The notes under the pieces were generated by a model. The model did not search any database. It saw nothing but the letters and a program-made list of their open reading frames with translations, and had not been told where the DNA came from. Position numbers and translations under genes: made by a program. Shown here in pieces: positions 47,741 through 61,007 of a stretch of 64,000 nucleotides of DNA. Position 1 is the stretch's first letter. The number at the start of each line of letters is the position of its first letter. The DNA is from a virus (Duplodnaviria; Caudoviricetes): positions 40 to 64,039 of IMG/VR virus record IMGVR_UViG_3300042015_000154; one strand, 5' to 3'.

Positions 47741-47756
47741 ATTAAATCGTTTTAAT
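47741..47756. promoter_or_regulatory. Palindromic motif variant ATTAAATCGTTTTAAT
   Basis: One mismatch to the consensus; upstream of ORF 47840. Confidence 0.75.
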
Positions 47757-47839
47757 CCAACCTTGTGAGGAAACGTTCCCCTGTGAGATGCTTTTCTCAC
47801 GGCGAGGGCATCCCGTCCCGCCATTCCGGAGTGAACCTC

Positions 47840-48538
47840 ATGAACGCCAAGTCCACCAACGTTGTCTCCATCAATGCCAAGGGCGATAAGGCCCTCGCCG
47901 ACAACGCCCACAAGGCCGACCGTATCGCGATCCTCGAAGCGATCGACACCGCGTCCGATCTGCTGGGCGCCTCGCTGCTCGAAGGGCTGCGCATGACGGC
48001 GCGCTTTGGCCTCACATCCAAGGCCGAGGTGGCCGAGGGCTGGACGCGCTGCAATAACCCGGACGTCTACGCGGCCAACTTCAACCGCGGCTACAAGGCC
48101 ATGCAGATCGTCGGCGAAAAGCTGGCGCTCGAAGTCATCGACAAGGCCGAGCGCGCAGGCACCACGGCCCGCAACGGTGGCGGCTACGTGCGCGCGCTGG
48201 CTGCCCTGAAGGCCATTTGCGACGAGGCCAAGTCGGCCGGCGTGAAGGAACTGACGGGGCGCAAGGCGACCGAGGCCGTGAAGGCGGCCGTCGCGTTCGC
48301 GGCCAAGCCCACGGCGAAGAAGTCCGCCACGCGTGCGCCGCAGGGCCCGACGACGGCCACGCTCGCAAAGGCCGCGCTCGCGATGGGCAATGGCCATGCC
48401 GAAATGGCCGCGTTCCTGAAGACGGCGAGCCATGCCGCCCAGCAGCTCCCAGTGCCTGAGGGTCGCGAGACGGCGCACCGCGATGCGCTCGAAGCGCTGG
48501 CCGATGCCGCCGAGGCGTTCTCGGTCTTCGCCCGCTGA
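47840..48538 (+). CDS. Ala/Lys-rich hypothetical early protein
   Basis: GGAG RBS, strong codon bias. Confidence 0.75.
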   Translation: MNAKSTNVVSINAKGDKALADNAHKADRIAILEAIDTASDLLGASLLEGLRMTARFGLTSKAEVAEGWTRCNNPDVYAANFNRGYKAMQIVGEKLALEVIDKAERAGTTARNGGGYVRALAALKAICDEAKSAGVKELTGRKATEAVKAAVAFAAKPTAKKSATRAPQGPTTATLAKAALAMGNGHAEMAAFLKTASHAAQQLPVPEGRETAHRDALEALADAAEAFSVFAR

Positions 48539-48750
48539 TCCCTCCTGCCGCCGGGCCCTAAACCCGGCGGCTCACCCCGACTTAGAGGCTGCCGCTATGA
48601 TCCGTATATCCGCCACCTTTGCGCCCGGCTGTGATGTGCACCTGTTCGCCCAGAACTGGAGCATGGCGGGGCGCCTCGCCCGGTTCCTCATGACCGAGGG
48701 GGCGCAAGTCGTCTGCTTCGCGTAGACCGGCCCGCAGCATCGAGACACAG

Positions 48751-48776
48751 AACCCCGCCGCTTGGCGGGGTTTTTT
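48751..48776 (+). terminator. Rho-independent terminator
   Basis: AACCCCGCC-GCTT-GGCGGGGTT followed by a T run. Confidence 0.85.
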
Positions 48777-48784
48777 GTGCCCGG

Positions 48785-48800
48785 ATTAAATCGTTTTAAT
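48785..48800. promoter_or_regulatory. Palindromic motif variant ATTAAATCGTTTTAAT
   Basis: Identical to the 47741 variant. Confidence 0.75.
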
Positions 48801-48959
48801 CGCCCTGCCAATATGCGGCGTTTATGATAGGACGCGAATGCCACGGCCTCTTAGAACGTATTACCGATGACCCCCACTTCGCAAAGGCAACGCGCCTAGC
48901 GGCAAGGGGGTGGCGCGGCGCCGCAATACAACAAAGGGGTGGGGCAAAAGCGGGGTCTG

Positions 48960-49070
48960 GGGGCTATATCGATAATATGGCCATAATTAGGGGTATATAT
49001 ATTAATTAAATAAGAATAAGAATATATATATATAGAGAATTACATTAAGACTATTTTCGCTCTAAAAAGA
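48960..49070. other. Very AT-rich non-coding tract (candidate origin or genome-end region)
   Basis: TATATATATTAATTAAATAAGAATAAGAATATATATATATAG in an otherwise GC-rich genome. Confidence 0.55.
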
Positions 49071-49286
49071 CACACCCCCGTCTGCGATCCCCCGGCTCCC
49101 TCAAATCGGTTTGGCCCCTCAGAAGGTCCGGCCTCTGTTTTTGGAACTCATCTTTACCGGACTAACTTTGCCCCTCCATCCCTCAGATGTTCCATGTTTA
49201 CGCCCCTCAATCCCCCGTTTTACGACCCTGCTCCGCGCCGTCCTCTCCACCCCCAATTTGCCTAAAGCCTTTTTTCCATAACGCTA

Positions 49287-49354
49287 TTGCCTTTTCGCCT
49301 TGCCGTGGTATTGTTTCGGTATATCGCGCTATATCGGCCAATTAAAACGTTTTA
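49287..49354 (+). promoter_or_regulatory. Putative promoter (TTGCCT-N16-TATTGT, TGn extension) plus palindrome at 49343-49354 overlapping the AGGAGG RBS
   Basis: Motifs seen directly; promoter activity inferred. Confidence 0.55.
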
Positions 49355-49366
49355 GGAGGACACCCC

Positions 49367-50320
49367 ATGAAGTCGCTACACGGCAAGCTCACCCCCGAAG
49401 AGATCCAGCAGCGCATCGACATGGCGACGCGGGGCATGCACCCAGACGCCACGACGATGGCCGCGATCAACCCAGTCGTTGCCGAAGGCCGCACCGGTGT
49501 CGAGACGTTCGCCGACAAGGCACGCCGCGAACGCGACGCACTGCGCGCAAGGGTGCTGGACGACAGGCAGTGGCGGGGGCTGTCGTACCCGGAGCGGGTG
49601 GAGCTGTGCCGGCAGGCGCAGGTGCTGCCGCACGAGCCCGACATCATGCGGTTCGACCTGTACCGGTCGATGGTGCCGCGTGAGTTCTCCCGGGACCGGT
49701 CGTCGCCGGCCGGCAAGCGCTACAACTCGCTGAGCGTGGCGGCGACGAAGGCGCGCAAGGCGCTGAGCCCGGAGCGGGCGGCGTATTGGGAGCAGTGCCG
49801 CGAGGCGCGCATGGCCGGTGGCTGGACGCAGCAGGGCGACCGCGCCGTGTGGGCGGTGCCCGAGCCCGTGCAGGACGCGCGCGAGGCGGCGCTACAGGCG
49901 CACGTCGAGGCCGGCACGCTGCCCGAGGATCCGATGCCGGGGGAGCGCAGCACTGAGGCGGTGGCGCTGCGACGTCGCGCCCACGCCGATCGGCAGGAGG
50001 TGAAGCGCCGGCTGGCGGCGAAGGTGAAGACCGACGAGCAGGCGGCACGCGACGACCGCGAGGCGTTGGCCATCGTGATGCGCGAGCTGGCCAGCGCGGC
50101 GCCCCTCGACCCCACGGCTGCGGCGAGGCTCGACGCCCTGCGTCGCCACGAGGCCGGCGCGGCCCAGTATGCGAAGAGCTACGCGCTGCGTGCGGCGGAG
50201 GACTTGGCCCTGATCCTGCGCATGGGGCGGCCGTGCCCCATCGCGTCGCGACACCGCTGTGGTGACGAGGTGATGCACCGTCGACCGCGGTTCTATCATT
50301 CCGACCGGGGGAGCATCTGA
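49367..50320 (+). CDS. Hypothetical early protein
   Basis: AGGAGG RBS; 317-aa ORF. Confidence 0.7.
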   Translation: MKSLHGKLTPEEIQQRIDMATRGMHPDATTMAAINPVVAEGRTGVETFADKARRERDALRARVLDDRQWRGLSYPERVELCRQAQVLPHEPDIMRFDLYRSMVPREFSRDRSSPAGKRYNSLSVAATKARKALSPERAAYWEQCREARMAGGWTQQGDRAVWAVPEPVQDAREAALQAHVEAGTLPEDPMPGERSTEAVALRRRAHADRQEVKRRLAAKVKTDEQAARDDREALAIVMRELASAAPLDPTAAARLDALRRHEAGAAQYAKSYALRAAEDLALILRMGRPCPIASRHRCGDEVMHRRPRFYHSDRGSI

Positions 50321-50399
50321 CGTGGGCGCGTCACAGGGTGGGCCTTGTCCCTTCAACCCTCCACGTATTCGCCGCACTGCACGCGAGGAACGCGAGTAC

Positions 50400-50630
50400 A
50401 TGACCCCGCACCCGATGGAGATCCTGTCGGGGGCGATGGAGAGGCACTGGATGGAATACAGGCAGCGCAGGCGTTTGGACGAACGCTTCGACTCTACCGT
50501 GTTCGGCGATGCCCGGATGCACGCCATCGGACAGATGATCGCGCAACGCCCACAGGGATGGCTGAGCGTTGACTTGGCGTGGCTCCGACTCATGGCCATC
50601 ACGCGTCTCGACCGGTCGAAGTGTGATTGA
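50400..50630 (+). CDS. Hypothetical protein
   Basis: GAGGA upstream; stop codon overlaps the next -35. Confidence 0.45.
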   Translation: MTPHPMEILSGAMERHWMEYRQRRRLDERFDSTVFGDARMHAIGQMIAQRPQGWLSVDLAWLRLMAITRLDRSKCD

Positions 50631-50698
50631 CACTTAACCCCACCTATGCGACAATGACGTTGTGAGTGGGGCGACCGTGCCCGATTAAAACGTTTTAA
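50627..50698 (+). promoter_or_regulatory. Repeated early promoter (TTGACA-CTTAACCCCACCTATGC-GACAAT) plus palindrome at 50685-50698
   Basis: Consensus -35, 17-bp spacer; near-identical copies at 55276 and 58456. Confidence 0.85.
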
Positions 50699-50711
50699 GG
50701 GAGAGACCATC

Positions 50712-51011
50712 ATGCGTAAGGAAGTCACGATCCAGCTCATCCCGTTGTTCGACGTCGTGCGCAGCCCTGACGACCCCGTGTCGATCGAGTGGGAAGTGGA
50801 CGGGGCGTCGGGCTCGACGCAGTGCGAGGCATGGCGCGGGCAGCACGAGATCGAAGGACTCGAACGTGCGGGCCACACCATTGTGCGCATCACGGTGAAC
50901 GGCATCGAGGTGTACAGCACGCTCAAGCTGAAGCCGGTTGACCTGAGCGAATGCGAGGGGCGCATCCACCCCGACACGCTCGACCACTACGCTGGCCGCG
51001 AGGGAGGCTGA
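50712..51011 (+). CDS. Hypothetical protein
   Basis: GGGAGAG RBS after the promoter. Confidence 0.75.
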   Translation: MRKEVTIQLIPLFDVVRSPDDPVSIEWEVDGASGSTQCEAWRGQHEIEGLERAGHTIVRITVNGIEVYSTLKLKPVDLSECEGRIHPDTLDHYAGREGG

Positions 51012-51012
51012 C

Positions 51013-51246
51013 ATGGCCAAGTCCATCACCATCACGATCGACATCAGCGTGTACAACGTGCGCGCGTTTGTTCGTGCCGCACGGGAGCGGGCGCGCAAAG
51101 AGGGACTGGACGAAGAACAGGTGAGGGAGTACAGCGCGACCAACCTCACCGGCTGCGCCGTCATGCTGTTCGACCCGGGCTCGGGCCCCGCAGGCTGTGA
51201 GATCCAAGACAGCTCGGCCGAACGCAACGAAATGTTCGACGACTGA
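51013..51246 (+). CDS. Hypothetical protein
   Basis: GGAGG RBS. Confidence 0.7.
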   Translation: MAKSITITIDISVYNVRAFVRAARERARKEGLDEEQVREYSATNLTGCAVMLFDPGSGPAGCEIQDSSAERNEMFDD

Positions 51247-51247
51247 C

Positions 51248-51502
51248 ATGATTATCCGCGACGCCATCACCCTGTTCGCGATGATCGGCGAGCACCCCGA
51301 CGCTCTGTTGGGTTTCCAAGAGGGGAGGCAGTGGACGTCGATTTATCATGCGCGCTGCCTGCAACGCGAGGACGCGGCGGGCAGTCAGATATACACGTTC
51401 GAGAACTTTGCCATGCTCGCGCTTCGGCAGCAGCTGACCCTCGTACTCGAACTCGACATGCCGCCAGAGTGCTCGCTCAACTGCCCGCTTTGCACCCACT
51501 AA
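51248..51502 (+). CDS. Cys/His-motif paralog 1 (IIRDAITLFA; HARC; CPLC)
   Basis: Shared family motif; its TAA stop is part of the palindrome. Confidence 0.7.
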   Translation: MIIRDAITLFAMIGEHPDALLGFQEGRQWTSIYHARCLQREDAAGSQIYTFENFAMLALRQQLTLVLELDMPPECSLNCPLCTH

Positions 51503-51512
51503 AACGTTTTAA
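51500..51512. promoter_or_regulatory. Palindromic motif copy
   Basis: TAAAACGTTTTAA. Confidence 0.8.
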
Positions 51513-51527
51513 TCACAGGAGTGCGCC

Positions 51528-52046
51528 ATGAACCAGCCCACCACCGACCAGCCCGTGCCGCCCCGCTACCGCATCGACCACAACCCCAGCCACTCCACCG
51601 TTGGCATCGATGCAGTGATGACTTATGCCGGCGGCTCGTACACCGAGGCATACCAGAAGTTCCGCGCCACCGATGCACTGGAGGGGGAGTACGTCACGAT
51701 GTCGCAGTGGAACCGTCGCACCTGCGACTACGACGTCATGCACTCCAAGGCAGCCACGATGCACAAGAAGAACCCCGCCACCCCCGTGATCGAGAAGATG
51801 ACGGCTCGCCCGGTCACCATCAAGTTCGGAATCCACGTGTCGCTCGAAGGTGACCTCGATGCGTGCGTCAACCACCCGCCGATCAACGTGCCGGTGACGC
51901 TGGAGGCGGTGCTCGAATCCATGAAGAACCTGTGCTTCATCGTCGAGACGGTCGCGCACCTGCAAGGCAAGGAACGCGAGCTGCTGCCGCAAGCGGAGAC
52001 GGCGCGCTCTATCATCGCCGCGCTGCAGCCACGGGTGCGGCGGTGA
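51528..52046 (+). CDS. Hypothetical protein
   Basis: AGGAG RBS after the palindrome. Confidence 0.75.
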   Translation: MNQPTTDQPVPPRYRIDHNPSHSTVGIDAVMTYAGGSYTEAYQKFRATDALEGEYVTMSQWNRRTCDYDVMHSKAATMHKKNPATPVIEKMTARPVTIKFGIHVSLEGDLDACVNHPPINVPVTLEAVLESMKNLCFIVETVAHLQGKERELLPQAETARSIIAALQPRVRR

Positions 52047-52340
52047 GTGATGGACAAGGGTGCATACTTCATCGCGAAGGACGAGATCACGCTGATTGCG
52101 ATACTCGGACAGGTGCCGGGCGACTGGCTGGTGCGGGAAGTGTCAACGCGTAATGGCGCCGACGGATGCCGGTATGCGCGCGCCGATTGCGTGCTCGCAC
52201 GCGGGTTTCTGTATGGGCGCTTCTATGCAATGCCGGAGCAAGTTGACCAGTGGGAAGTGTTTTGCAACGACAACCAGTTTGCGGAGGAACCCTGCTACTG
52301 CGAGGGCTCGGATCACAGATGTAATCAGGAACACCCATAG
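52047..52340 (+). CDS. Cys/His-motif paralog 2 (KDEITLIA; RADC; CYC)
   Basis: Shared family motif. Confidence 0.65.
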   Translation: MMDKGAYFIAKDEITLIAILGQVPGDWLVREVSTRNGADGCRYARADCVLARGFLYGRFYAMPEQVDQWEVFCNDNQFAEEPCYCEGSDHRCNQEHP

Positions 52341-52342
52341 TC

Positions 52343-52603
52343 ATGGACCTGCTCACTGCCATCGCGCTCGCCCCCTCACAGCCCGACTGCTACGTGCTGG
52401 TGTACTGCGCTGCCTTCACCGACGGACCGAAGAATCGCGGCACGTACTACTGTCGGTTGGACTGTTTCGAGCGTTTCGGCATCTCGACCTTCGTGACTGA
52501 TATCGAAGAGTGCGAGTTTGTGCTCGTCAGCGGCGCTGAGAATTTCTACTGTACGTGCGGTGGGCCAAAGCTGCACCGTTTGGACCAACCCCACCCGAGG
52601 TGA
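52343..52603 (+). CDS. Cys/His-motif paralog 3 (MDLLTAIA; CRLDC; CTC)
   Basis: Shared family motif. Confidence 0.65.
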   Translation: MDLLTAIALAPSQPDCYVLVYCAAFTDGPKNRGTYYCRLDCFERFGISTFVTDIEECEFVLVSGAENFYCTCGGPKLHRLDQPHPR

Positions 52604-52606
52604 CTT

Positions 52607-52897
52607 ATGCGCGTTGTAAATGACACCCTGACCGCGATCGCTTTGTCGAACCAGTACCCGGTGATGGTTGTTGGCGATTTCTCTTACTACGCCACGGTGC
52701 ACGGTCACTGCGCGCAGAGCATCACGCTTTACGATGGCGACACGATCGCCCTATATACCGACTGGCAGGAGTTTCAGCAGGCATACAACGACTTCCTCGC
52801 CGACAAGCGATACCGCGGCCTGTCGGACCACTTCATCTGTGTGTACTGCAAGCGGCGGATGCACGAGCCGACCGAACAGCTCGACCTGATCCGTTAA
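52607..52897 (+). CDS. Cys/His-motif paralog 4 (NDTLTAIA; HGHC; CVYC)
   Basis: GAGGTG RBS; shared motif; stop lies within the palindrome. Confidence 0.7.
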   Translation: MRVVNDTLTAIALSNQYPVMVVGDFSYYATVHGHCAQSITLYDGDTIALYTDWQEFQQAYNDFLADKRYRGLSDHFICVYCKRRMHEPTEQLDLIR

Positions 52898-52907
52898 AAC
52901 GTTTTAA
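52894..52907. promoter_or_regulatory. Palindromic motif copy
   Basis: TTAAAACGTTTTAA. Confidence 0.85.
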
Positions 52908-52920
52908 TCCAAGGTGTGCG

Positions 52921-53280
52921 ATGGATATCTCGACGTTCTATCATCGACCACTGGACGAGATCACTCTGCTCGCCATCTCTCCCTATATGGACGCAGGCGA
53001 CTGCATTGAGGTGATCTTCCCCGTCAGCAATAAACCCGTTAGCAAAAAGCGCAAGGGCATGGTGGTGGCTGGGTACGCTCGCGTGCATGCATGCTGTTAC
53101 ACAGATTTGCGAGAGGGGGTCGCGCCGCGCTCCCCGAGCTACGTGGACCGATTCAACAAGGCAACGGATAGATCCGGCGCAGAGCTGTTCCTACGAGACG
53201 GCAATTACTTTAGAGACGAACGCGACTTCTGCTGCCTGTGCTGGGGCATGATCAATACCATTCCGGAGGCAAAATCATGA
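52921..53280 (+). CDS. Cys/His-motif paralog 5 (LDEITLLA; HACC; CCLC)
   Basis: AAGGTG RBS; shared motif. Confidence 0.7.
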   Translation: MDISTFYHRPLDEITLLAISPYMDAGDCIEVIFPVSNKPVSKKRKGMVVAGYARVHACCYTDLREGVAPRSPSYVDRFNKATDRSGAELFLRDGNYFRDERDFCCLCWGMINTIPEAKS

Positions 53281-53453
53281 GCATCGGTGCCAACAACGAA
53301 CAGGACTACGAGTCCTCCCTGCGCGAAGAGAACAAGGCCGCGCGTTTCTTCACCGTTCTCCTGCTGGCGATGTTCGCCGGCGGCGTGATCGGCTACACGT
53401 GGGGCGTGGGTGTCGGCGAGCGCAACGCCGTCATCGCATGCTGGAAGCGGTGA
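53277..53453 (+). CDS. Small membrane protein
   Basis: GGAGG RBS; one TM helix; overlaps at both ends. Confidence 0.65.
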   Translation: MSIGANNEQDYESSLREENKAARFFTVLLLAMFAGGVIGYTWGVGVGERNAVIACWKR

Positions 53454-53722
53454 TCATCCGCGACGAGCTGACGCTGATTGCGCTAGCGCCCACGCTTCCG
53501 TCGAACAGCGTGATCCGATTCGTGCTCGACGACGGAGCCGACGACTTCTTTGTTCGCGGGGATTGCTATGCGGAAAGGGGGCGGGGGAATGGTGGCATGG
53601 CCGACGGACAGGAGATCACGGCCATCGAAATCGGAAACGTGTTTGAGGGGCAGACCTACAGCCGATTGTGCTTCTGCGGTAGGACGAGCGGAGCGCGGGA
53701 ACTGAGGGAGTGCGGCCTATGA
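53450..53722 (+). CDS. Cys/His-motif paralog 6 (IIRDELTLIA; RGDC; CFC)
   Basis: GTGA overlap; shared motif. Confidence 0.7.
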   Translation: MIIRDELTLIALAPTLPSNSVIRFVLDDGADDFFVRGDCYAERGRGNGGMADGQEITAIEIGNVFEGQTYSRLCFCGRTSGARELRECGL

Positions 53723-53988
53723 TCATCCGCGACGAACTGACGCTGATCGCGGTGTGCGGTGCGCCTGACCTGCGCATCCGCATCACATGGAAAGGGTCGG
53801 GCGACTGGAGCCTCGCGCACGGTGAGTGCTGCACCCGCGACCCGCGCAACTGGGCGTCCATTATCAGCTACCTCAATAGCAAGGGCACGGTGCTTCGCTC
53901 GGTCAAGCGCACCTCACGCGGTAAGATGCGATGCGTGTGGTGCCGCCAGCCCACGGACAAGCCGTACGATCCCGCTTTGGGGAAGTAA
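53719..53988 (+). CDS. Cys/His-motif paralog 7 (IIRDELTLIA; HGEC; CVWC)
   Basis: ATGA overlap, GGGAG RBS; shared motif. Confidence 0.75.
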   Translation: MIIRDELTLIAVCGAPDLRIRITWKGSGDWSLAHGECCTRDPRNWASIISYLNSKGTVLRSVKRTSRGKMRCVWCRQPTDKPYDPALGK

Positions 53989-53990
53989 TC

Positions 53991-54290
53991 ATGAAGACAC
54001 CAAAGCGACAGGTCATGCGCATCCACGACGCGATCACGCTCTATGCGCTGGCCGCCGACCCGGACGTGCGCATCCGCGTGCAGTGGCTGGGCGGCAAGGT
54101 GGGGAGGTGGTCCTACTACCACGGCCCATGCGCAGTTGCAGCCGATGTTGTGCGACTCATCGACATCAACCCACAACGCGCTAGGCTGCACGCCGTGTGC
54201 AAGCAGCAGGATCGTTGGGCGCACTGGCGCGCAACGTGCTCCTATTGCCGCGCTGCGATCAACCAGCCCTTCCCCGGAGCCGTGCCATGA
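53991..54290 (+). CDS. Cys/His-motif paralog 8 (IHDAITLYA; HGPC; CSYC)
   Basis: Shared motif; PDVRIRVQW resembles PDLRIRITW of paralog 7. Confidence 0.75.
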   Translation: MKTPKRQVMRIHDAITLYALAADPDVRIRVQWLGGKVGRWSYYHGPCAVAADVVRLIDINPQRARLHAVCKQQDRWAHWRATCSYCRAAINQPFPGAVP

Positions 54291-54721
54291 ACACCGAACC
54301 GCAACGCTTCCTCGTCCCCGACCTGCTCACGCTGATGGCGGTGTCGTCTGTGTATCCGCGTGCGTTCGTCGCCCCGGGCGCGACGAGCAAGCAGTTTTAC
54401 TGCCTGCGAATCCTGATGGCCAGTGACTCGGCGATGGACAACTTCGAGACGTCGCGCCGCATTCAGACATGGAGCACCAAGCGCAAGCAGTATGAAGACG
54501 TGATCCTGCCTATCATTCTGTACCCGACGTGGCGCGATGCGGACCTGATGGTGAACGAGTCGGGCAACGTCAAGTGCTACGCTTGCGGCCGCCTGCTGAC
54601 CCAACACGGAGAAGACGATGGGCGACCAGACGATCGACCGGATGGCTTGGTGCCTCCGCAGCTACAAGAACGCAACGGCCAAGGGCCTTCCCGTCAGCGA
54701 GGACGTAAAGCGTACCGCTGA
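54287..54721 (+). CDS. Cys/His-motif paralog 9 (PDLLTLMA; single central C; CYAC)
   Basis: GGAG RBS, ATGA overlap; central pair incomplete. Confidence 0.6.
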   Translation: MNTEPQRFLVPDLLTLMAVSSVYPRAFVAPGATSKQFYCLRILMASDSAMDNFETSRRIQTWSTKRKQYEDVILPIILYPTWRDADLMVNESGNVKCYACGRLLTQHGEDDGRPDDRPDGLVPPQLQERNGQGPSRQRGRKAYR

Positions 54722-54803
54722 GCGTGCGCTCGCCGAGTACGACCAGATGCGCGCCGACCAGCTCGCGCAGACGCAACAGACATCGTTCAAACCGAGGATC
54801 TAG
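54618..54803 (+). CDS. Hypothetical protein
   Basis: GGAGA RBS; overlaps the tail of the previous ORF. Confidence 0.5.
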   Translation: MGDQTIDRMAWCLRSYKNATAKGLPVSEDVKRTAERALAEYDQMRADQLAQTQQTSFKPRI

Positions 54804-54805
54804 CC

Positions 54806-54955
54806 ATGCGAGTTGATCCGGTAACACTAGGCTTGCTGGCCGCGGCCGGCATCGCCTTCATCTTTCAAGCCGTCGGTCCCGGGCTGTTCTTTGCCTTCTT
54901 CGGCGGGCTTGGCCTTTGGTCCGACTGGGAGATGCGTCATGACAAACGTTCTTAG
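54806..54955 (+). CDS. Small membrane protein (not in the ORF track; MRVDPVTLGLLAAAG...)
   Basis: GAGGA RBS; 49 aa, hydrophobic. Confidence 0.55.
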   Translation: MRVDPVTLGLLAAAGIAFIFQAVGPGLFFAFFGGLGLWSDWEMRHDKRS

Positions 54956-55160
54956 CCTACGCACGCTGCGCCGCCTCATCCCCGAGCCCGTGCGCCCCTC
55001 CAAGCCGTGGCCGCTGCTACCCGGCGCGACGCGCCCCGAAGAGACGCAGGTACGCATGCGCGCGCAGTCACTGCTGACGGGCGAGCTGATCGGCGGCGCG
55101 TGCCCACCCCTGACCTACGAGCAGGCGTGCGACGTGTTGCGCTGGGCGGGTGAGAAATGA
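54939..55160 (+). CDS. Hypothetical protein
   Basis: GGGAG RBS before ATG 54939. Confidence 0.55.
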   Translation: MTNVLSLRTLRRLIPEPVRPSKPWPLLPGATRPEETQVRMRAQSLLTGELIGGACPPLTYEQACDVLRWAGEK

Positions 55161-55279
55161 AGACCCTCGACGTCCTGATCACCCTGCCGTTCCTCGTGCT
55201 CGGATTCGTCTTCGAGTCCTGCTACCGGTCTTTCAAGGCAGGCCGCCTGCTGTGGCGCCGGTGGGCAAGCGTGGATTGA
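55157..55279 (+). CDS. Small membrane peptide (not in the ORF track; MKTLDVLITLPFLVLG...)
   Basis: ATGA overlap; 40 aa; stop overlaps the next -35. Confidence 0.5.
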   Translation: MKTLDVLITLPFLVLGFVFESCYRSFKAGRLLWRRWASVD

Positions 55280-55347
55280 CTCTTAACCCCACCTGTGAGA
55301 CAATATGCTCTCAGGTGGGGAGTTCCACCCGGATTAAAACGTTTTAA
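55276..55347 (+). promoter_or_regulatory. Repeated early promoter (TTGACT-CTTAACCCCACCTGTGA-GACAAT) plus palindrome at 55334-55347
   Basis: Second copy of the promoter/palindrome unit. Confidence 0.85.
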
Positions 55348-55359
55348 GGAGTGACCATC

Positions 55360-55749
55360 ATGCGCGTCATAGAAGAGCAAATGCTGGCGGCAATCGAGGA
55401 CTACAAGAACTGGAAGTGCCGCAACACAGAAGTCCGCATCGACCCCGTGGTCGGGGGCAGCGAAGTCGAGGTGTACCTGCATGGACATCTCATCGCCAAG
55501 CGCTACTTCTTCGGTAGCGACAAGGCGTACATCGGCGAGTGGGAGATCTGCCTCTGTCGCTGGAATACACCGACGACCCGCTCGCGCCTGAACGCTATTA
55601 TCGGCTCGCTGGCGAAGCTCGGACGTCCCGGCCAGTGGCCTAGCGGAGCAGGCGTGTCGACGAACCGAGGCGTGATCACTCTGCGCGATGCGCGCGGCGA
55701 GACGACGATCGACTCATTCGACTGGCACAAGGTTGTGGTGCGGCTATGA
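55360..55749 (+). CDS. Conserved phage protein (VYLHGHLIA...WNTPTTRSRLNA)
   Basis: AAGGAG RBS; recognisable phage hypothetical motif. Confidence 0.8.
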   Translation: MRVIEEQMLAAIEDYKNWKCRNTEVRIDPVVGGSEVEVYLHGHLIAKRYFFGSDKAYIGEWEICLCRWNTPTTRSRLNAIIGSLAKLGRPGQWPSGAGVSTNRGVITLRDARGETTIDSFDWHKVVVRL

Positions 55750-56123
55750 GCTTCGACGGTAGCATCCAGCTGCCCGCGCTCGACGCGATCACCGTGATCG
55801 CCTGTCTCGGGAACTACCCGCTGGAGTCGACGACGGTGAAGTTCACACGCACCGGTATGCAGTTGTCCAAGGGATGGGTGCGGTACGCCGACGGCCAGAC
55901 GAACGTGGAGAGCACCCAGTGCCTGAAGTGCGCATGCCTAGCGCGGGTGAGAGATCCGAATAGCGACGGCCGCGAGGAATTCCTCCACGCGGTGTTGAAT
56001 GGCTGGATCATCGTGCACGGGTTCGCACCGAAGTCGGACCTGTTCAAGTGCGCATGCCGCATCCTGCCGGACCAGCGACCGCGAGCGAGGGGAACATGGG
56101 CCAAACCAACCCACCAGTTCTAG
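55746..56123 (+). CDS. Cys/His-motif paralog 10 (LDAITVIA; CLKC; CAC)
   Basis: ATGA overlap; shared motif. Confidence 0.65.
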   Translation: MSFDGSIQLPALDAITVIACLGNYPLESTTVKFTRTGMQLSKGWVRYADGQTNVESTQCLKCACLARVRDPNSDGREEFLHAVLNGWIIVHGFAPKSDLFKCACRILPDQRPRARGTWAKPTHQF

Positions 56124-56566
56124 ACCTGATCACGTTCCATGCGCTCAAGGGTGAGGACGCGGCGGGCTACCGTGTGTTCGCAAAACAGAAAAACCTAGCG
56201 CCGGACGTCTGGACGGCGTGGCGCAGCGAGCGCACGTGGTGCCGCGCCTGTGCGATCGTGGAAGCGGTGTACCGCGCAATTGCAGCGCATTCGCCTACGT
56301 TTAGCTGGACCCAGCTAGCTGGGGGAGTATTAGGCAGCGCAATTCACAACAGTGTCAGCTCGAAGGACATACTGGCCGAACTGGTGGGGGAAGATGACGG
56401 CACGAGCCCCTACGTCATCGCGCTGGCCAACCACGGCCGCTGCGACCTGTGCGGCAAGATCTTCGGCCACTTCCCCACCATCCCGCCGTCGTCGATGCAG
56501 ATCACCGCGCCCGACCCGCACCGCCACGACACGTGGCGCAAGAAAAACCGCTGGAGGATTCGATGA
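56096..56566 (+). CDS. Cys/His-motif paralog 11 (LDLITFHA; CRAC; CDLC)
   Basis: GAGGGG RBS; shared motif. Confidence 0.65.
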   Translation: MGQTNPPVLDLITFHALKGEDAAGYRVFAKQKNLAPDVWTAWRSERTWCRACAIVEAVYRAIAAHSPTFSWTQLAGGVLGSAIHNSVSSKDILAELVGEDDGTSPYVIALANHGRCDLCGKIFGHFPTIPPSSMQITAPDPHRHDTWRKKNRWRIR

Positions 56567-56811
56567 GGTTCAACTACTACCTGATCGCCCACAACCTGCC
56601 GCTCGACCCCACACCTCTGCCGGAGCCGAAGGTAGTGGCGTCGATCACGGTGGACCCCGCCTTCATCGGCAAGCTCAACCCGCACGAGCACCTGAAGGCG
56701 CTCGCCGGGAAGATGGGCCTGCTTGACTTCACCATCGAGTCGGCCGAAGCTCAGGACCGCCCGGGCTACCAGCTCGGCTTGCCGTTCCCGCGCCCGAGGA
56801 AGAAGCATTAA
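56563..56811 (+). CDS. Hypothetical protein
   Basis: GGAGG RBS; stop lies within the palindrome. Confidence 0.7.
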   Translation: MRFNYYLIAHNLPLDPTPLPEPKVVASITVDPAFIGKLNPHEHLKALAGKMGLLDFTIESAEAQDRPGYQLGLPFPRPRKKH

Positions 56812-56821
56812 AACGTTTTAA
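56808..56821. promoter_or_regulatory. Palindromic motif copy
   Basis: TTAAAACGTTTTAA. Confidence 0.85.
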
Positions 56822-56843
56822 CCCTTGTTCTGGAGAGACCATC

Positions 56844-57071
56844 ATGACCACGCGCAAGCTGACCAAGCCGCAGAAGACTCTCGCCGCTATCATCGAGACC
56901 GAGGGTGCAACAATCCTCGCCTTCCGCAAGGCAACCAAACACCTGAAGGTGGACTTCACCTTCGACCAAGGGCAGAGCGTGCACACGCAGACCCTGCCCT
57001 ATGGTGACCCCATCGGCTCGCGCTGGGAGGCCAACTTCCGCGCCGCCGTACGCCGCTGTAAACCCAACTGA
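56844..57071 (+). CDS. Small basic hypothetical protein
   Basis: GGAGAG RBS. Confidence 0.7.
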   Translation: MTTRKLTKPQKTLAAIIETEGATILAFRKATKHLKVDFTFDQGQSVHTQTLPYGDPIGSRWEANFRAAVRRCKPN

Positions 57072-57079
57072 GAGAAGCC

Positions 57080-58186
57080 ATGAACCCGAACCTTCCCGCC
57101 GTCGCAGCCTTGCTGACCGACTTCAAACTCACCGATGCGCAAAGTGCACTCTCGGCCGGCAGCGTGCTGGCTCGTGCCCTCTCCATCTCCATGCAGAACA
57201 CCGCGCCCTACAACCTGCCGATCGACCAGACCCTGCCGGACAGCGACACGCGTGCCGAAGCGATCGCGGCCACGGTGCACCCGCACAACATCGCCAGCGC
57301 CCTGCTGTCCCTGCGCCATGCCGGTGTCGGCGTGCAGGGTGGCCTGCAGGTGTACGGCCCGACCGGCTGGCAGCTGCTCGACCAGCTGGCCATCCCGATG
57401 GTGCAGGTGACCCTGCAGGCGGCGCCTCCGGCTCCCGCTCCCGCGCCTGCACCGGCTCCCGCTCCCGCGCCTGCACCGGCCCCGGCGCCCGCTCCGGCGC
57501 CTGCCGCGGCCTCGACCCCGATCGTGGACCCGTCGGCGCTGGTGGCGGCTGCGGTGGCCGGTGGCGAGCGGCCTATCATCGAAGGCTCGTCGCAGCGCAT
57601 CACCACGCCGCAGGAGTTCGACGCGGCCCGGCAGGCGCAGGGCCACCCGCCGCTGGCCGGCGTCGTGAGCGGCTACGAGGCCGCCGTGGCCCCGGTGACC
57701 ACGCAGGCAGCGCAGCCGGTGACGGTCCCCGCGCCGACCCCGCACGTGACGCACGCGCAGGCCGTGGCGGCCGCAGCGACGGCCCCGACCGAGGAAGTGG
57801 CCGGGCTGCCGGACCCGTCGGTGCTCAACGAGCGCACGGGCAAGAGCGGACGTCCGCAGAAGTCGCCGTTCGAGAAGAAGGTCGAGAAGCGCTCGAAGGT
57901 GGCCGCGCCGCCGTTCTGGTGGGAGTCGCTGCGCTACAGCCTGCCGCGCGTGTTCGTCGACCACCCGGCGCAGGCGCTCGACCCCAGCTCCGACGGTGCG
58001 GGCCCGGTGCAGGCGTACATGGTCGGCATCGCGATCCTGCAGGAAGCGCTGCGCGCTGCCGACGGCACGCTGACGGTCGCCCAGCTGCGTGCGTGGCTGC
58101 GCGAGGTGGAGACCGGCGTCACGGCGCTGGACGACTCCGCCGCGATCAACCAGCTCGTCGGCCACCTGTTCGGCAAGGCCGAGTAA
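57080..58186 (+). CDS. Hypothetical protein with long (AP)n linker
   Basis: 368 aa, codon bias; PAPAPA tract around 57425-57505. Confidence 0.75.
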   Translation: MNPNLPAVAALLTDFKLTDAQSALSAGSVLARALSISMQNTAPYNLPIDQTLPDSDTRAEAIAATVHPHNIASALLSLRHAGVGVQGGLQVYGPTGWQLLDQLAIPMVQVTLQAAPPAPAPAPAPAPAPAPAPAPAPAPAPAAASTPIVDPSALVAAAVAGGERPIIEGSSQRITTPQEFDAARQAQGHPPLAGVVSGYEAAVAPVTTQAAQPVTVPAPTPHVTHAQAVAAAATAPTEEVAGLPDPSVLNERTGKSGRPQKSPFEKKVEKRSKVAAPPFWWESLRYSLPRVFVDHPAQALDPSSDGAGPVQAYMVGIAILQEALRAADGTLTVAQLRAWLREVETGVTALDDSAAINQLVGHLFGKAE

Positions 58187-58228
58187 GACACACGGGCCAC
58201 GGACGGCCCCCTTTCCGGAGTCACCCTC

Positions 58229-58459
58229 ATGGACCACATCGCCACCCGCGAGCACTACCTGCAGCAGCCGCTGACCCAGCAGCTGAAGATCGCCGAGCTG
58301 CTGTCGTACCTCGACCAGAACAAACACTCCTGCCGCTGCGTCATGGCAGGCGGTCGCGACTTCACCGTCATCGTCGGCGCCGGCTACTCCAGCGCCCGTT
58401 ACTGGGCCGACAAGTTCGATCTCGAACTTCACACGGCGGCAGACGCCCACAGGAGTTGA
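58229..58459 (+). CDS. Hypothetical protein
   Basis: GGAG RBS; stop overlaps the next -35. Confidence 0.7.
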   Translation: MDHIATREHYLQQPLTQQLKIAELLSYLDQNKHSCRCVMAGGRDFTVIVGAGYSSARYWADKFDLELHTAADAHRS

Positions 58460-58532
58460 CACTTAACCCCACCTGTGCGACAATATTCACACTGGATGCA
58501 ACGTCCAGCCACCAACAATTAAAACGTTTTAA
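58456..58532 (+). promoter_or_regulatory. Repeated early promoter (TTGACA-CTTAACCCCACCTGTGC-GACAAT) plus palindrome at 58519-58532
   Basis: Third copy; lies upstream of the AAA/vWA operon. Confidence 0.85.
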
Positions 58533-58544
58533 GGAACCAACCTC

Positions 58545-59651
58545 ATGAGCACGAACGGTTACCGCATCAAGGCCGACAAGATCGCCGACTACGCCTCCGT
58601 CTTCTACAACTCCGGTCGCACTCCCCTCTTCATCGGCCCGCCGGGCATCGCCAAGACCGCGTTCGTCCGAGTGGCTGCGAAGGAACTGGCCGCGCAGCGT
58701 GGCATCGAGTTCCTGCCGGTGCGCGAGCTGCACCTCGCTTCCATGTCGGAAGTCGACGTGCGTGGTTACCTGATCCCGGACGGCGACAAGGCCGTGTTCA
58801 CCAAGCCCGAGTTCTGGGCGACGGTCGAGGCGCACCCCGAGGGTGGCATCCTGTTCCTCGACGAGTTCGTGCAGGCCACGCACGAAGTGCAGAAGGCGAT
58901 CGCCCCGCTGATCCTCGAAGGTCGCATCGGCGAGTACGTCCTGCCGCCGACGTGGCGCGTGTTCCTCGCCGGCAACGGTCTGGCCGATGGCGCCGGCGCC
59001 AACACGCTGCTGTCGCACATCATCAACCGCGTCGTGATCGTCGAGGTGGAAGCGCCTGACGCGGACGTGTGGATGGTGTGGGCGGCGGGCGAAGGCAACA
59101 TGCCGTCGGAGCTGATCGCGTTCGCGATGTCGCAGCCGGCGGTCGTGTTCGAGCCCGACGTGTCGCAGCTGGGTCCGGATGAGCCGTTCTGCACGCCGCG
59201 CTCGCTGCATGCGGTCGGCGATCTGGCCAACGCGTTCCCCGGCGGTGTCGAGGGCATGGTCTCCGACCCGGTGGGCATGGCGTTCATGTCCGGTGCGATC
59301 GGCACGGCTGCAGCGTCCGCACTGGCGGTCTTCATCCGCATGGCGATCAGCCTGCCGAGCTACGACGACATCGTGAACAAGCCGCTGCAGACCATCGTGC
59401 CGGATCGCGTCGACCAGCAGTACGCGATGGTGATCATGATCGCCTGCCGCGCCAAGCACGAGGATCTGCAGCCGCTGATGCAGTACCTCACCCGCTTCGA
59501 CAACAACATGATCCTCACCGGCCTCGCCGCGCTGACGCGTCGCGACAAGACGATGACCCACAACCAGTACGTGCTGGCGTGGATCATGGCCAACCAGACG
59601 CTGCTGGGCAAGTTCGCCAAGTACATCTCGAAGGCGGTGCGAGCATCATGA
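58545..59651 (+). CDS. MoxR/dynein-related AAA+ ATPase
   Basis: Walker A GPPGIAKT, Walker B ILFLDE, AGN sensor, NR finger, TPRS. Confidence 0.92.
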   Translation: MSTNGYRIKADKIADYASVFYNSGRTPLFIGPPGIAKTAFVRVAAKELAAQRGIEFLPVRELHLASMSEVDVRGYLIPDGDKAVFTKPEFWATVEAHPEGGILFLDEFVQATHEVQKAIAPLILEGRIGEYVLPPTWRVFLAGNGLADGAGANTLLSHIINRVVIVEVEAPDADVWMVWAAGEGNMPSELIAFAMSQPAVVFEPDVSQLGPDEPFCTPRSLHAVGDLANAFPGGVEGMVSDPVGMAFMSGAIGTAAASALAVFIRMAISLPSYDDIVNKPLQTIVPDRVDQQYAMVIMIACRAKHEDLQPLMQYLTRFDNNMILTGLAALTRRDKTMTHNQYVLAWIMANQTLLGKFAKYISKAVRAS

Positions 59652-60793
59652 GCACGAAGGCCAAATTCAACGAAGCGGTCACTGCACTGCTGATGACACA
59701 GCCGTTCTTTGGCCACCTGCTCCTGAAGATGAAGCACGTCGAGTGCGACACGTTGCGGCCGGCGACGATGGCGGTGTCGCGCACGACGATCTACTACCAC
59801 CCGCAGCTGATCGCGGAGCTGGAGGTGGATTGCATCATGTTCATCCTCGCCCACGAGGTTGCGCACAAGGCGTTCGACCAGATCGAGCGCGCACGCCACT
59901 ACCAGAAGTGCGGTACGGGGCCGGACGGCAAGCCGCTCGACTTCCACCTGTTCAACTGCGCGATGGACTACGTGGTCAATAGCGGACTGGAGGCGCAGGG
60001 CGTAGGGAAGTTCCCGGGCTTCGGCTGTCTCGACCAGCGATTCACGCACGAGATGACGCCCGAAGAGGTGTATTGCATCCTGAAGAAAGAGCAGGAGGAC
60101 GGCAAGCGCAGCCCCGTCGGCGAGCCGATGGACGGCCACGACACCAGCGAGGGCGACGAAGAGCTGGACCCGATCACGCAGGCGGACGTCATCCAGTCTG
60201 CGGACAACCACCGCCGCCTGATGGGCAAGTACCCCGCCGGCATCGAGCGCCTGATCGGCGAGCTGAAGAAGCCGTCGATGTCGCCGTGGCGTCGCCTGCG
60301 TCAGTTCGTCACGACGAACCTGCCCGGGCACGATGCGTCGACGTGGCGTCGCCTGCAGCGCCGCCCGCTGGTGCGTGGCATCGGCATGCCGGGTCGCGTG
60401 CAGCAGGGTGCTGGTCGTGTGGGCGTCGTCGTCGACACGTCGGGCTCGATCGGGCAGGAGATGCTGAACCTGTTCTCCGGCCACATGGCGGCGATCATGG
60501 ACGACGCGATGCCGCGCGAGGTGTACGTGTACTGGGTGGATGCCGTCGTGCAGCGCCGGGACATCGTGAAGAACGGCTCGCAGCTGCGCGCCCTGTTCTC
60601 GAAGCCCGTGCCCGGCGGTGGCGGCACCGACATGCCCCGCGGCGTTCGCGCTGCGGTGGAGGACAAGTGCGACGCTGTTGTCGTGCTAACCGACGGTTAC
60701 ACCGGGTTCGGCCAGAAGGAAACCAAGCCGGTGCTGTGGGCGATCACGTCGCACCAGATCAGCGCACCGCACGGCATCACCATCCACATCTGA
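59648..60793 (+). CDS. Metallopeptidase-like (HExxH) plus vWA domain protein (DUF2201-type)
   Basis: LAHEVAH, N.AMDYVVN, MIDAS DTSGS, GGGGTD, LTDGY. Confidence 0.9.
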   Translation: MSTKAKFNEAVTALLMTQPFFGHLLLKMKHVECDTLRPATMAVSRTTIYYHPQLIAELEVDCIMFILAHEVAHKAFDQIERARHYQKCGTGPDGKPLDFHLFNCAMDYVVNSGLEAQGVGKFPGFGCLDQRFTHEMTPEEVYCILKKEQEDGKRSPVGEPMDGHDTSEGDEELDPITQADVIQSADNHRRLMGKYPAGIERLIGELKKPSMSPWRRLRQFVTTNLPGHDASTWRRLQRRPLVRGIGMPGRVQQGAGRVGVVVDTSGSIGQEMLNLFSGHMAAIMDDAMPREVYVYWVDAVVQRRDIVKNGSQLRALFSKPVPGGGGTDMPRGVRAAVEDKCDAVVVLTDGYTGFGQKETKPVLWAITSHQISAPHGITIHI

Positions 60794-60802
60794 GGTGCAA
60801 TC

Positions 60803-60997: not shown

Positions 60998-61007
60998 AAC
61001 GTTTTAA
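60994..61007. promoter_or_regulatory. Palindromic motif copy
   Basis: TTAAAACGTTTTAA. Confidence 0.85.

What the first reader, a model, noticed from the sequence alone, without database searches (positions are those of the whole stretch)
51248..56566. Array of about 11 hyper-diverged small metal-binding paralogs sharing an N-terminal D-x-[IL]-T-x-x-A tag
Seen: eleven ORFs of about 84-156 aa (starts 51248, 52047, 52343, 52607, 52921, 53450, 53719, 53991, 54287, 55746, 56096) all carry a motif near the N-terminus: DAITLFA, DEITLIA, DLLTAIA, DTLTAIA, DEITLLA, DELTLIA, DELTLIA, DAITLYA, DLLTLMA, DAITVIA, DLITFHA. Each then has a central [H/C/R]xxC-type pair (HARC, RADC, CRLDC, HGHC, HACC, RGDC, HGEC, HGPC, incomplete in no. 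9, CLKC, CRAC) and a C-terminal CxxC or CxC (CPLC, CYC, CTC, CVYC, CCLC, CFC, CVWC, CSYC, CYAC, CAC, CDLC). The sequences between motifs look almost unrelated. The genes are tightly coupled and lie behind strong early promoters. Inference: a constant docking helix plus a Zn-stabilised scaffold with variable surfaces, i.e. a repertoire of specificity adaptors or host-defence inhibitors that plug into one shared partner. I do not recognise this as a described family.
Basis: partly seen in the sequence, partly recalled or inferred. Interest (0 to 1): 0.9.

Follow-up and report, generated by a model that had tools for sequence, protein, structure and literature searches.

The report
Phage array of zinc mini-protein paralogs
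An uncultured 64-kb soil phage carries eleven old, very diverged copies of one small, probably zinc-binding protein in its early genes; the family is undescribed, and it most likely supplies a set of different binders used at the start of infection, though no target is known.

Summary
All 11 ORFs exist and have a coding signature. The motif D-x-[IL]-T-x-x-A occurs 11 times in the six-frame translation of the window. All 11 lie near the N-termini of these ORFs. Leave-one-out profiles recover 10 of 11 members.

The family has no match in Pfam, NCBIfam or PHROGs. Related phage DNA carries more arrays: 16 members in one phage, at least 9 on a metagenome contig. An exhaustive search gave 25 further cluster representatives.

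Over 52 members the pattern is an apolar N-terminal helix, then Pro, [C/H]xxC and CxxC. Cys and His alternate at the first ligand, which points to one zinc site. Only 6 of the 11 window copies keep the canonical set.

Two AlphaFold models share the element order in their confident N-terminal halves. No solved fold resembles the better model (best Z 4.3).

Function is inferred, not shown: early-made binders whose variable segment lies between the two knuckles. The "docking helix" and "shared partner" ideas remain untested.

Paralog expansions of small zinc proteins are already in print for Bacillus phage G. This scan has also noted them in other phages. I therefore class this as a new family of a known kind.

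The parts
51248..51502 (+). member 1, 84 aa (DAITLFA; HARC; CPLC)
   Evidence: leave-one-out E 1.2e-6; called as P0004
52047..52340 (+). member 2, 97 aa, or 96 aa from ATG 52050 (DEITLIA; RADC; CYC...HRC); first-site ligand missing
   Evidence: leave-one-out E 3.4e-8; AlphaFold model pLDDT 70, N-terminal half confident
52343..52603 (+). member 3, 86 aa (DLLTAIA; CRLDC; CTC)
   Evidence: leave-one-out E 0.0012
52607..52897 (+). member 4, 96 aa (DTLTAIA; HGHC; CVYC)
   Evidence: leave-one-out E 8.6e-5; BLASTP to metagenome protein P0026 E 3e-5
52921..53280 (+). member 5, 119 aa (DEITLLA; HACC; CCLC); follows a palindrome copy
   Evidence: leave-one-out E 0.043, marginal; two-phage profile E 5.9e-4 for the whole library
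53450..53722 (+). member 6, 90 aa from GTG 53450, or 94 aa from ATG 53438 (DELTLIA; RGDC; CFC); first-site ligand missing
   Evidence: leave-one-out E 1.2e-5; database form P0043
53719..53988 (+). member 7, 89 aa (DELTLIA; HGEC; CVWC); start overlaps the stop of member 6
   Evidence: leave-one-out E 8.2e-8
53991..54290 (+). member 8, 99 aa (DAITLYA; HGPC; CSYC)
   Evidence: AlphaFold pLDDT 80.3, pTM 0.72; ortholog P0024, 44% identity, E 1e-28
54287..54721 (+). member 9, 144 aa (DLLTLMA; single Cys at the first site; CYAC; basic tail)
   Evidence: leave-one-out E 0.032; ortholog P0047, 44% identity, E 4e-38
55746..56123 (+). member 10, 125 aa (DAITVIA; CLKC; CAC), behind the second promoter cassette
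   Evidence: leave-one-out E 1.5e-5
56096..56566 (+). member 11, 156 aa (DLITFHA; CRAC; CDLC); weakest member
   Evidence: leave-one-out rank 13, E 0.94; two-phage profile E 2e-6 (P0020)
50627..50681 (+). sigma-70-like promoter cassette 1 (TTGACA, 17 nt, TG-n-GACAAT) upstream of members 1-9
   Evidence: (family D5)
55276..55330 (+). promoter cassette 2, upstream of 55351-55749 and members 10-11

Best explanation
The eleven genes are old paralogs of one phage-specific family. Each is a small single-domain alpha/beta protein.

Shared plan:
- a short strand;
- an almost wholly apolar helix (D-x-[LI]-T-[L]-x-x-[LIVM]-A) closed by a Pro;
- a beta-hairpin;
- a [C/H]-x-x-C at the start of the next helix;
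- a segment that varies in length and sequence;
- a C-terminal C-x-x-C knuckle.

The two pairs most likely hold one structural zinc ion. The N-terminal helix is most likely the hydrophobic core of the fold, with Asp and Thr capping it.

The genes sit in the host-polymerase-read early region, packed for coupled translation. I infer that they are made together at the start of infection. I infer that each binds a different host molecule through its variable inter-knuckle segment, most likely a protein of host metabolism or defence.

Shown: family membership, the ligand pattern, the arrays in related phages, and the absence from libraries. Predicted: the fold and the zinc site. Inferred only: early expression, binding, and the kind of target.
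For: Family:
- Leave-one-out recovery of 10 of 11 members.
- The window-only profile ranks ORFs of the syntenic array of a related phage (L004; ATPase 56% identical) as 9 of its 10 best non-window hits.
- The two-phage profile finds 46 proteins at E<=1e-3 among 1.84 billion representatives. Nine are window members, 10 are from L004, 25 are new, and 2 are false repeat proteins.

Arrays: 16 members in L004 and 9 on the 4.7-kb contig L019.

Metal site: C/H alternation at ligand 1 (35 C, 14 H, 3 R of 52). The other three ligands are Cys in 48, 50 and 52 of 52.

Fold:
- Member 8: pLDDT 80.3, pTM 0.72.
- Member 2: pLDDT 70, with residues 51-80 of low confidence.
- The order b1-a1-b2-b3-a2 is the same in both, and each has a later strand b4. 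Member 8 also has a helix a3 that member 2 lacks. The C-terminal knuckle block of member 8 has pLDDT 91.

Selection:
- Orthologs elsewhere are 44% identical and keep the strand after the helix and both knuckles.
- By my count on the printed alignment, only about 4 of 25 positions between the knuckles are kept in member 8 against P0024.

Varied targets: pI of the 11 runs from 4.5 to 10.0, with 5 acidic, 1 near neutral and 5 basic.

Early context: sigma-70-like cassettes, small gaps or 4-nt overlaps between genes, and Shine-Dalgarno-like stretches upstream of most starts.
Against: - No experiment and no RNA data exist. No RNA run holds this DNA.
- No partner is known and the host is unknown.
- Three of the 11 copies lack a first-site ligand and four have CxC instead of CxxC. 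Zinc binding may be lost or rearranged in part of the array.
- The helix is better conserved than the other core elements. A purely structural role does not obviously predict that.
- Both models are predictions from shallow alignments (27 and 52 rows). I could not inspect coordinates, so neither the burial of the helix nor the geometry of the site was measured.
Confidence: 0.5

Rival explanations
1. Adaptor repertoire. The invariant N-terminal helix is an exposed docking element. It plugs every paralog into one shared partner, for example the phage MoxR-type ATPase / vWA-peptidase / DUF3150 module just downstream, or a host hub. The variable part selects different targets.
For: - The helix columns are the best conserved non-ligand columns: D 48, T 48 and P 48 of 52.
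- Related phages with the same ATPase module carry unrelated paralog families upstream of it, in some with further copies elsewhere in the locus. Each family has its own conserved N-terminal motif that looks apolar and helix-like: 12, 9 and 8 copies of an 'ARAMLLG' family in L005, L008 and L014, and 6 copies of an 'IRELIWG' family in L015.
- That recurrence could reflect a shared logic.
Against: - Positions 15 and 17-21 of the helix are mostly apolar on all faces. This suits a buried helix.
- The ARAMLLG family is unrelated by profile comparison (probability 0.7%).
- Position next to the ATPase is also simply the early region of these genomes.
- No co-variation or binding result exists.
Confidence: 0.15
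2. Nucleic-acid-binding regulators. The paralogs are sequence-specific DNA- or RNA-binding zinc proteins that time phage or host transcription. This was proposed in print for the roughly 35-copy zinc-ribbon expansion of Bacillus phage G.
For: - Small phage zinc proteins often bind nucleic acid or RNA polymerase.
- Iyer et al. 2021 suggest specific transcription factors or structural DNA-binding proteins for the phage G expansion (PMC7824862, passage read).
- Outside the window many members keep a basic 'PRRA' right after the helix.
- Five of the 11 window copies are basic.
Against: - Five of the 11 window copies are acidic, pI 4.5-5.3.
- The 'PRRA' is not kept in the window copies.
- The frequent palindrome TTAAAACGTTTTAA of this early region is absent from the 21 kb of L004 that holds 16 members. 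It is therefore not a conserved target.
- No match to any DNA-binding family.
Confidence: 0.2
3. DNA-level or neutral feature. The shared 5' segment is kept by gene conversion or unequal recombination between cassettes, and many copies are drifting duplicates without a function of their own.
For: - In L004 two neighbouring members share about 47 of the first 52 coding bases, including a 36-base identical run. After that they fall abruptly to background identity.
- Gene ends and starts are reused.
- The tree is star-like, with 39 of 54 inner branches unresolved.
Against: - All 11 frames are open with a coding GC3 signature.
- The motif codons of the window copies differ at the DNA level: 75-83% identity over 24 nt, family D2.
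- The residues are kept across phages at the protein level.
- Orthologs at 44% identity keep ligands and core.
Confidence: 0.07

Closest known systems
Lineage-specific expansion (about 35 copies) of a zinc-ribbon protein in Bacillus phage G (Iyer et al. 2021, PMC7824862; passage read)
   Same: Many diverged copies of one small zinc-binding protein inside a single phage genome. The function is unknown and is thought to be specific binding.
   Different: Phage G is a jumbo myovirus of Firmicutes and its protein is a classical zinc ribbon. tblastn of one canonical member (P0033) against 50,697 phage records found nothing at E<=1. The family here has an N-terminal helix and a mixed alpha/beta plan. 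The paper's Supplementary S1.4, which I could not open, may hold details that bear on this comparison.
Arrays of small zinc proteins noted by this scan in other phages (e1-5816497, e1-5674956, e1-1991448, e1-227818; AI notes)
   Same: Tandem, diverged CxxC mini-proteins in early or non-structural regions, with reused gene joints, read as sets of binders.
   Different: They lie in other genomes and other families. A word look-up with P0033 found no look-alike stretch in the scan. I did not test those notes.
Rip1 (ring interacting pore 1), prophage anti-phage protein, PDB 9oox
   Same: The 52-member profile aligns from the Pro after the helix to the second knuckle with Rip1 residues 96-156, which hold CxxC...CxxC (E 0.011). 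The review PMC13434031 (section 5 read) describes an N-terminal helix plus a C-terminal contact domain.
   Different: The score (19.5 bits) is barely above unrelated RING and zinc-finger chains (17.5 bits). The N-terminal motif is not aligned. 9oox does not appear in my fold-search lists, and I do not know whether those libraries hold it. This is a lead only.
T4 internal proteins IPI-IPIII with a shared N-terminal capsid-targeting sequence (recalled, from no call)
   Same: A constant N-terminal tag on otherwise unrelated small proteins, at least one of which is an anti-restriction factor.
   Different: Those are late, packaged, proteolytically processed and have no zinc site. The genes here lie behind host-type promoters in the early region.
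P2 Ogr / P4 Delta four-Cys transcription activators (Pfam PF04606; family name and accession recalled)
   Same: Small phage proteins with two Cys pairs.
   Different: This family is not among the families printed by the Pfam scans, which show only the first 25 of 49 matched. It is single-copy, not an array.

Membership tests
The new family defined here (DxLTL helix / Pro / two knuckles) | N-terminal D-x-[LI]-T helix followed by Pro about 11 residues after the Asp | tested here: met
   The D-x-[IL]-T-x-x-A motif is in 11 of 11 window members. The Pro column is invariant in alignment A1, although the 27-sequence alignment A2 places member 5 differently. D, T and P are each present in 48 of 52 family members.
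The new family defined here (DxLTL helix / Pro / two knuckles) | [C/H]-x-x-C first site and C-x-x-C second site | tested here: inconclusive
   Canonical in 6 of 11 window members and near-canonical in 2; the first site is incomplete in 3. Outside the window the first ligand is C or H in 41 of 41.
The new family defined here (DxLTL helix / Pro / two knuckles) | Recovery by a profile that does not contain the sequence | tested here: met
   10 of 11 are the first non-training hit. Member 11 fails (E 0.94) in the window-only test but scores E 2e-6 with the two-phage profile, which did contain it.
Pfam, NCBIfam and PHROG zinc-ribbon or zinc-finger families | Score at or above the curated cut-off, or a family shared by many members | tested here: not met
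   No family is matched by more than 2 of 52 members. All E-values are >= 0.0003 and none is near a cut-off.
Classical zinc-ribbon fold | Two knuckles on beta-hairpins forming a three-stranded ribbon | tested here: inconclusive
   In the models the first pair sits at the start of helix a2, not on a hairpin. The fold searches give nothing above Z 4.3.
Phage G zinc-ribbon expansion | Sequence similarity to its members | tested here: inconclusive
   Only one query (P0033) was run by tblastn against the phage collection, with no match at E<=1. No profile search of phage G itself was run.
Rip1-like proteins (PDB 9oox) | Significant sequence or fold match to the C-terminal ring-binding domain | tested here: inconclusive
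   E 0.011 and 19.5 bits, at noise level for Cys-rich profiles. 9oox is not listed in the fold searches.
'ARAMLLG' paralog family of Rhizobium-phage-like relatives | Profile-profile similarity | tested here: not met
   hhalign probability 0.7% over 10 columns.

The most novel reading that the evidence does not exclude
The locus upstream of the conserved MoxR-ATPase / vWA-peptidase / DUF3150 module is an expansion site. Each phage lineage there grows its own multigene family of small proteins with a lineage-specific invariant N-terminal helix. The zinc family is found here, 'ARAMLLG' in Rhizobium-phage-like relatives, and 'IRELIWG' in another relative.

In this reading the helices are handles that deliver many different captured host proteins to one shared phage machine. 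That would be a phage counterpart of F-box-type substrate adaptors.
Probability: 0.12. Interest if true: 0.85.

Novelty: new member of a known kind. Interest (0 to 1): 0.5.

Why it matters
About 8% of a 64-kb phage genome is spent on eleven versions of one tiny protein. Related phages spend as much on 9 to 16 further versions. Such an investment in the first genes expressed suggests an arms-race function.

The family is absent from Pfam, NCBIfam and PHROGs. Its predicted fold has no solved look-alike. It therefore offers a compact, probably zinc-stabilised scaffold with a naturally hypervariable segment.

If partners can be found, the array would give a ready-made panel of specific binders against host functions or defences of soil bacteria. 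The clade-wide replacement of one paralog family by another at the same locus would then become a tractable case of how phages renew their early arsenal.

Tried and rejected
Library searches
- Pfam, PHROGs and NCBIfam gave no shared family.
- Word-indexed protein searches returned only window or L004 proteins and three others. They are limited to 100 words and say nothing about family size.
- The ESM Atlas gave no named neighbour. Scores were 0.79 and 0.91, with no Pfam family.

Fold searches of the member 8 model
- Foldseek against the PDB and against BFVD found nothing at E<=0.001.
- VIA-align against 48,161 representatives, and against Foldseek's top 998, gave a best Z of 4.3: a designed binder, rmsd 2.8 over 65 residues. 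Nothing reached Z 5.
- A weak or missing match does not prove a new fold.

Collection scans
- blastn of the 6-kb region against phage records found no match.
- tblastn of P0033 found no match.
- A viral-contig scan with P0024 found no relative.
- DNA pattern scans found only L004's own contig in viral contigs.
- They found one true contig, L019, in metagenome contigs.
- They found one false hit, L020, in genome contigs.

Other steps
- Homodimer co-fold of member 8 with zinc: 'no answer', score 0.00. This is no evidence either way.
- Sequencing runs: no RNA holder is listed. Three rhizosphere metagenome runs hold the DNA. One may be the source, and two hold only short identical pieces at low depth. 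They show nothing about gene content.
- The tree of 57 members is unresolved. I therefore claim no order of duplication.
- Literature: searches for the nearest cultured phage's name, Rip1, zinc-ribbon expansions and tandem early paralogs found no paper on this family. Only the phage G passage is close. I searched no other terms. Supplements are closed.
- I rejected the idea that the ARAMLLG family is a Cys-less branch of this family.

Full report
**What the window is.** The window is nearly all of a 64,039-base virus record with direct terminal repeats, rated complete. GC content is about 65%.
- Plus-strand genes run from about 47.7 kb through the end and on to 14.9 kb. They include DNA polymerase, helicase, primase, a MoxR-type ATPase, a DUF2201 metallopeptidase/vWA protein and a DUF3150 protein.
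- Structural genes lie mainly on the minus strand between 15 and 47.5 kb, with the large terminase on the plus strand.
- No tRNA gene was found.
- The nearest cultured relatives are Rhizobium phages of the RHph_TM3_14A type, with 39% portal identity and the same gene order.
- Near-identical DNA is held by three rhizosphere metagenome runs, one of which may be the source.

**Checking the observation.**
- The motif D.[IL]T..A occurs 11 times in all six frames of the 64 kb. Every hit lies in this 5-kb stretch, on the plus strand, 2-14 residues after a start codon.
- Shuffled translations give 2.9 +/- 1.6 hits, at most 8 in 200 shuffles.
- Each ORF has its highest GC at codon position 3 in the claimed frame, 0.68-0.84.
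- Only 3 of 55 pairs are similar by BLASTP at E<1e-3.
- A profile built from ten members finds the eleventh as its first new hit in 10 of 11 trials. Eight of these have E below about 1e-3 and two are at 0.03-0.04. Member 11 fails this test. A later profile that included it scores it well.
- The members are therefore true but very old paralogs.
- They are not one unbroken array. A 172-aa ORF, a 71-aa membrane-like ORF, a block of small ORFs and a 132-aa ORF lie between them. The 132-aa ORF belongs to the Kyano_Gp96 / phrog_554 family of unknown function.

**Regulatory surroundings.** Three mutually similar cassettes lie at 50627, 55276 and 58456. Each has TTGACA, a 17-nt spacer and an extended -10.
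- The first cassette precedes members 1-9 and the second precedes members 10-11.
- Their number is not above chance in the simple scan, but they share 55 aligned bases at 67-76% identity.
- A 14-bp palindrome, TTAAAACGTTTTAA or a one-base variant, stands 10 times between 47742 and 61007. It lies shortly before ribosome-binding sites and often supplies the previous stop codon.
- Neighbouring members are separated by 2-3 bases or overlap by 4. Stretches resembling Shine-Dalgarno sites lie upstream of most starts, in several cases inside the preceding gene's last codons.

**Relatives.** No Pfam, PHROG or NCBIfam model fits.
- One IMG/VR phage (L004, 60.9 kb; ATPase 56% identical) has a syntenic region with 16 small ORFs. 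They start with MDxLTLxxLAxxQP and carry CxxC...CxxC.
- The window-only profile ranks nine of these among its ten best outside hits.
- A 27-sequence profile was scored against 2,685 ORFs of the window and 14 other loci (L004 to L017). It finds only the 27 training sequences (E<=3e-7). The next score is E 0.06, so the more distant relatives lack the family.
- The same profile was read against 1.84 billion representatives and gave 46 proteins at E<=1e-3. Nine are window members and 10 are L004 members. Two are false positives: a cytochrome c repeat protein and a RING repeat protein. The other 25 are new.
- Two of the new ones lie on a 4.7-kb metagenome contig (L019). It holds nine members in a row behind homologs of window genes 47765-48538 and 49367-50320.
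- Others sit on contigs of 63,186 and 61,463 bases that I could not fetch.
- P0024 and P0047 are 44%-identical orthologs of members 8 and 9.
- The ten clusters that I looked up have only one or two member sequences each.

**Anatomy of the family.** Counts are from the 52-member alignment.
- Asp, Thr and Pro of the N-terminal segment are each present in 48 of 52.
- The positions between them are Leu, Ile, Val, Met, Ala or Thr in most members.
- The first metal position is Cys in 35, His in 14 and Arg in 3.
- The next three metal positions are Cys in 48, 50 and 52.
- Exchange of Cys and His at one fixed position is what a metal ligand does and what a disulfide does not.
- AlphaFold2 gives member 8 a confident model (pLDDT 80.3, pTM 0.72). 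Its elements are strand 9-11, helix 14-21 (the motif), strands 26-32 and 39-44, helices 45-50 and 53-59 and strand 64-70. The C-terminal knuckle block has pLDDT 91.
- Member 2 is acidic and lacks a first-site ligand. Its elements come in the same order through helix 45-51. It lacks the second helix of that pair, has low confidence from 51 to 80, and has a later strand at 68-71.
- No solved or predicted viral structure resembles the member 8 model. Foldseek finds nothing at E<=0.001, and the best VIA-align Z is 4.3.
- Between orthologs the identities cluster in the strand after the helix and around both knuckles. The stretch between the knuckles is nearly free to vary.
- Among all members that stretch also varies in length.
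- The pI of the window copies ranges from 4.5 to 10.0.

**How it most likely works.**
- Shown: one family, arrays in at least three phage genomes or contigs, a conserved four-position Cys/His pattern, open frames with a coding signature, and orthologs that keep the Cys/His ligands they have and the core.
- Predicted: a small alpha/beta domain pinned by one zinc.
- Inferred: the genes are read by the host polymerase at the start of infection, and each protein binds its own target through the inter-knuckle segment.
- I read the N-terminal helix as the core of the fold, because it is apolar on all faces.
- Three window copies (2, 6, 9) lack a first-site ligand and four have CxC. Part of the array may have changed or lost its metal site. 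Member 9's ortholog shares the reduced set, so that state is maintained rather than decaying.

**Rivals.**
- A role as DNA- or RNA-binding regulators was proposed for the phage G expansion. It is weakened by the five acidic copies. It is also weakened because this genome's palindrome is absent from the 21 kb of L004 that holds 16 members.
- A DNA-level explanation has one point in its favour. Two L004 neighbours share an almost identical first 52 bases and then diverge abruptly, which suggests occasional conversion or recombination at the shared 5' segment.
- That explanation cannot account for protein-level conservation across phages with differing codons.
- The adaptor model gains a little from a comparative point. 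Related phages with the same ATPase module have, upstream of it, arrays of unrelated small paralogs with their own conserved N-terminal segment.
- The largest of these families is unrelated to the present one.

**Comparison with what is known.**
- Expansions of small zinc proteins in phages are in print for Bacillus phage G (passage read). AI notes of this scan report several others in other genomes.
- The present family is a new sequence family and probably a new small fold, but it is the same kind of thing.
- A borderline profile match to the prophage defence protein Rip1 is at noise level and unsupported by the fold lists.

**Verdict.** The docking helix, the shared partner and the anti-defence role are untested. 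Interest is moderate (0.5). The family is solid and well delimited and takes up an unusually large share of a mid-sized phage genome. Its function is unknown, and the general phenomenon has been seen before.

Noticed in passing
window 47742-61007: The 14-bp palindrome TTAAAACGTTTTAA, or a one-base variant, occurs 10 times. Each copy lies 10-25 nt before a start codon, and several supply the upstream stop codon. It is absent from 21 kb of the related phage L004. Its role is unknown; it could be an operator, a processing site or a phage promoter.
   Followed up: partly
window 50627-50681, 55276-55330, 58456-58510: Three promoter-like cassettes share 55 aligned bases at 67-76% identity. Each has TTGACA, a 17-nt spacer and TG-n-GACAAT, and each is followed by a GC-rich inverted repeat and the palindrome.
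   Followed up: partly
L005:10751-14127 (also 23475, 26608); L008:4510-8202 (also 13495-14011, 20517); L014:4562-8175: Related phages, including Rhizobium phage RHph_TM3_14A, carry 12, 9 and 8 copies of a different small paralog family upstream of the same ATPase. Its motifs are 'xEHxARAMLLGxxY' and 'DADTLEP', with no Cys. One L008 row looks like an off-frame ORF. The family has no Pfam match and is unrelated to the zinc family.
   Followed up: partly
L015:7535-9266; L010:6435-10338; L012:5571-14591: Further lineage-specific small paralog sets lie upstream of, or around, the same ATPase gene. They are 6 copies with 'IRELIWGVPGDV' plus Gly-rich tails, 4 copies with 'AAFAAAL...LIYG', and 3 copies with 'DPWWP'.
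   Followed up: no
L004:1992-2575: Two neighbouring family members share about 47 of their first 52 coding bases, including a 36-base identical run, and then drop abruptly to background identity. This suggests recombination or conversion at the shared 5' segment.
   Followed up: partly
L004:1740-5271: The C-terminal '[FY]-E-[DE]-I-P-W' motif of many L004 members encodes the GAGGA ribosome-binding site and the ATG of the next gene in another frame. Part of that protein motif may therefore be a gene-junction constraint.
   Followed up: partly
window 55351-55749: A 132-aa ORF inside the array region is the only early small ORF with a library match: Pfam Kyano_Gp96 (E 8e-15) and phrog_554, both of unknown function.
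   Followed up: no
window 15011-22636 (- strand): A 2,541-aa ORF has no Pfam match at E<=0.001. The Rhizobium phage has a hypothetical protein of similar size at the same place.
   Followed up: no
window 57164-57527: A Pro-Ala repeat stretch inside the 368-aa ORF 57080-58186 draws many unrelated metagenome contigs: depth 56-106 against about 37 elsewhere in X1. This is a low-complexity artefact of mapping.
   Followed up: no
window 49367-50320; L004:820-1740; L019:1520-2344: A charged protein of about 300 aa with no library match stands upstream of the zinc-protein array. It lies directly upstream in L004 and L019 and about 1 kb upstream in the window.
   Followed up: partly
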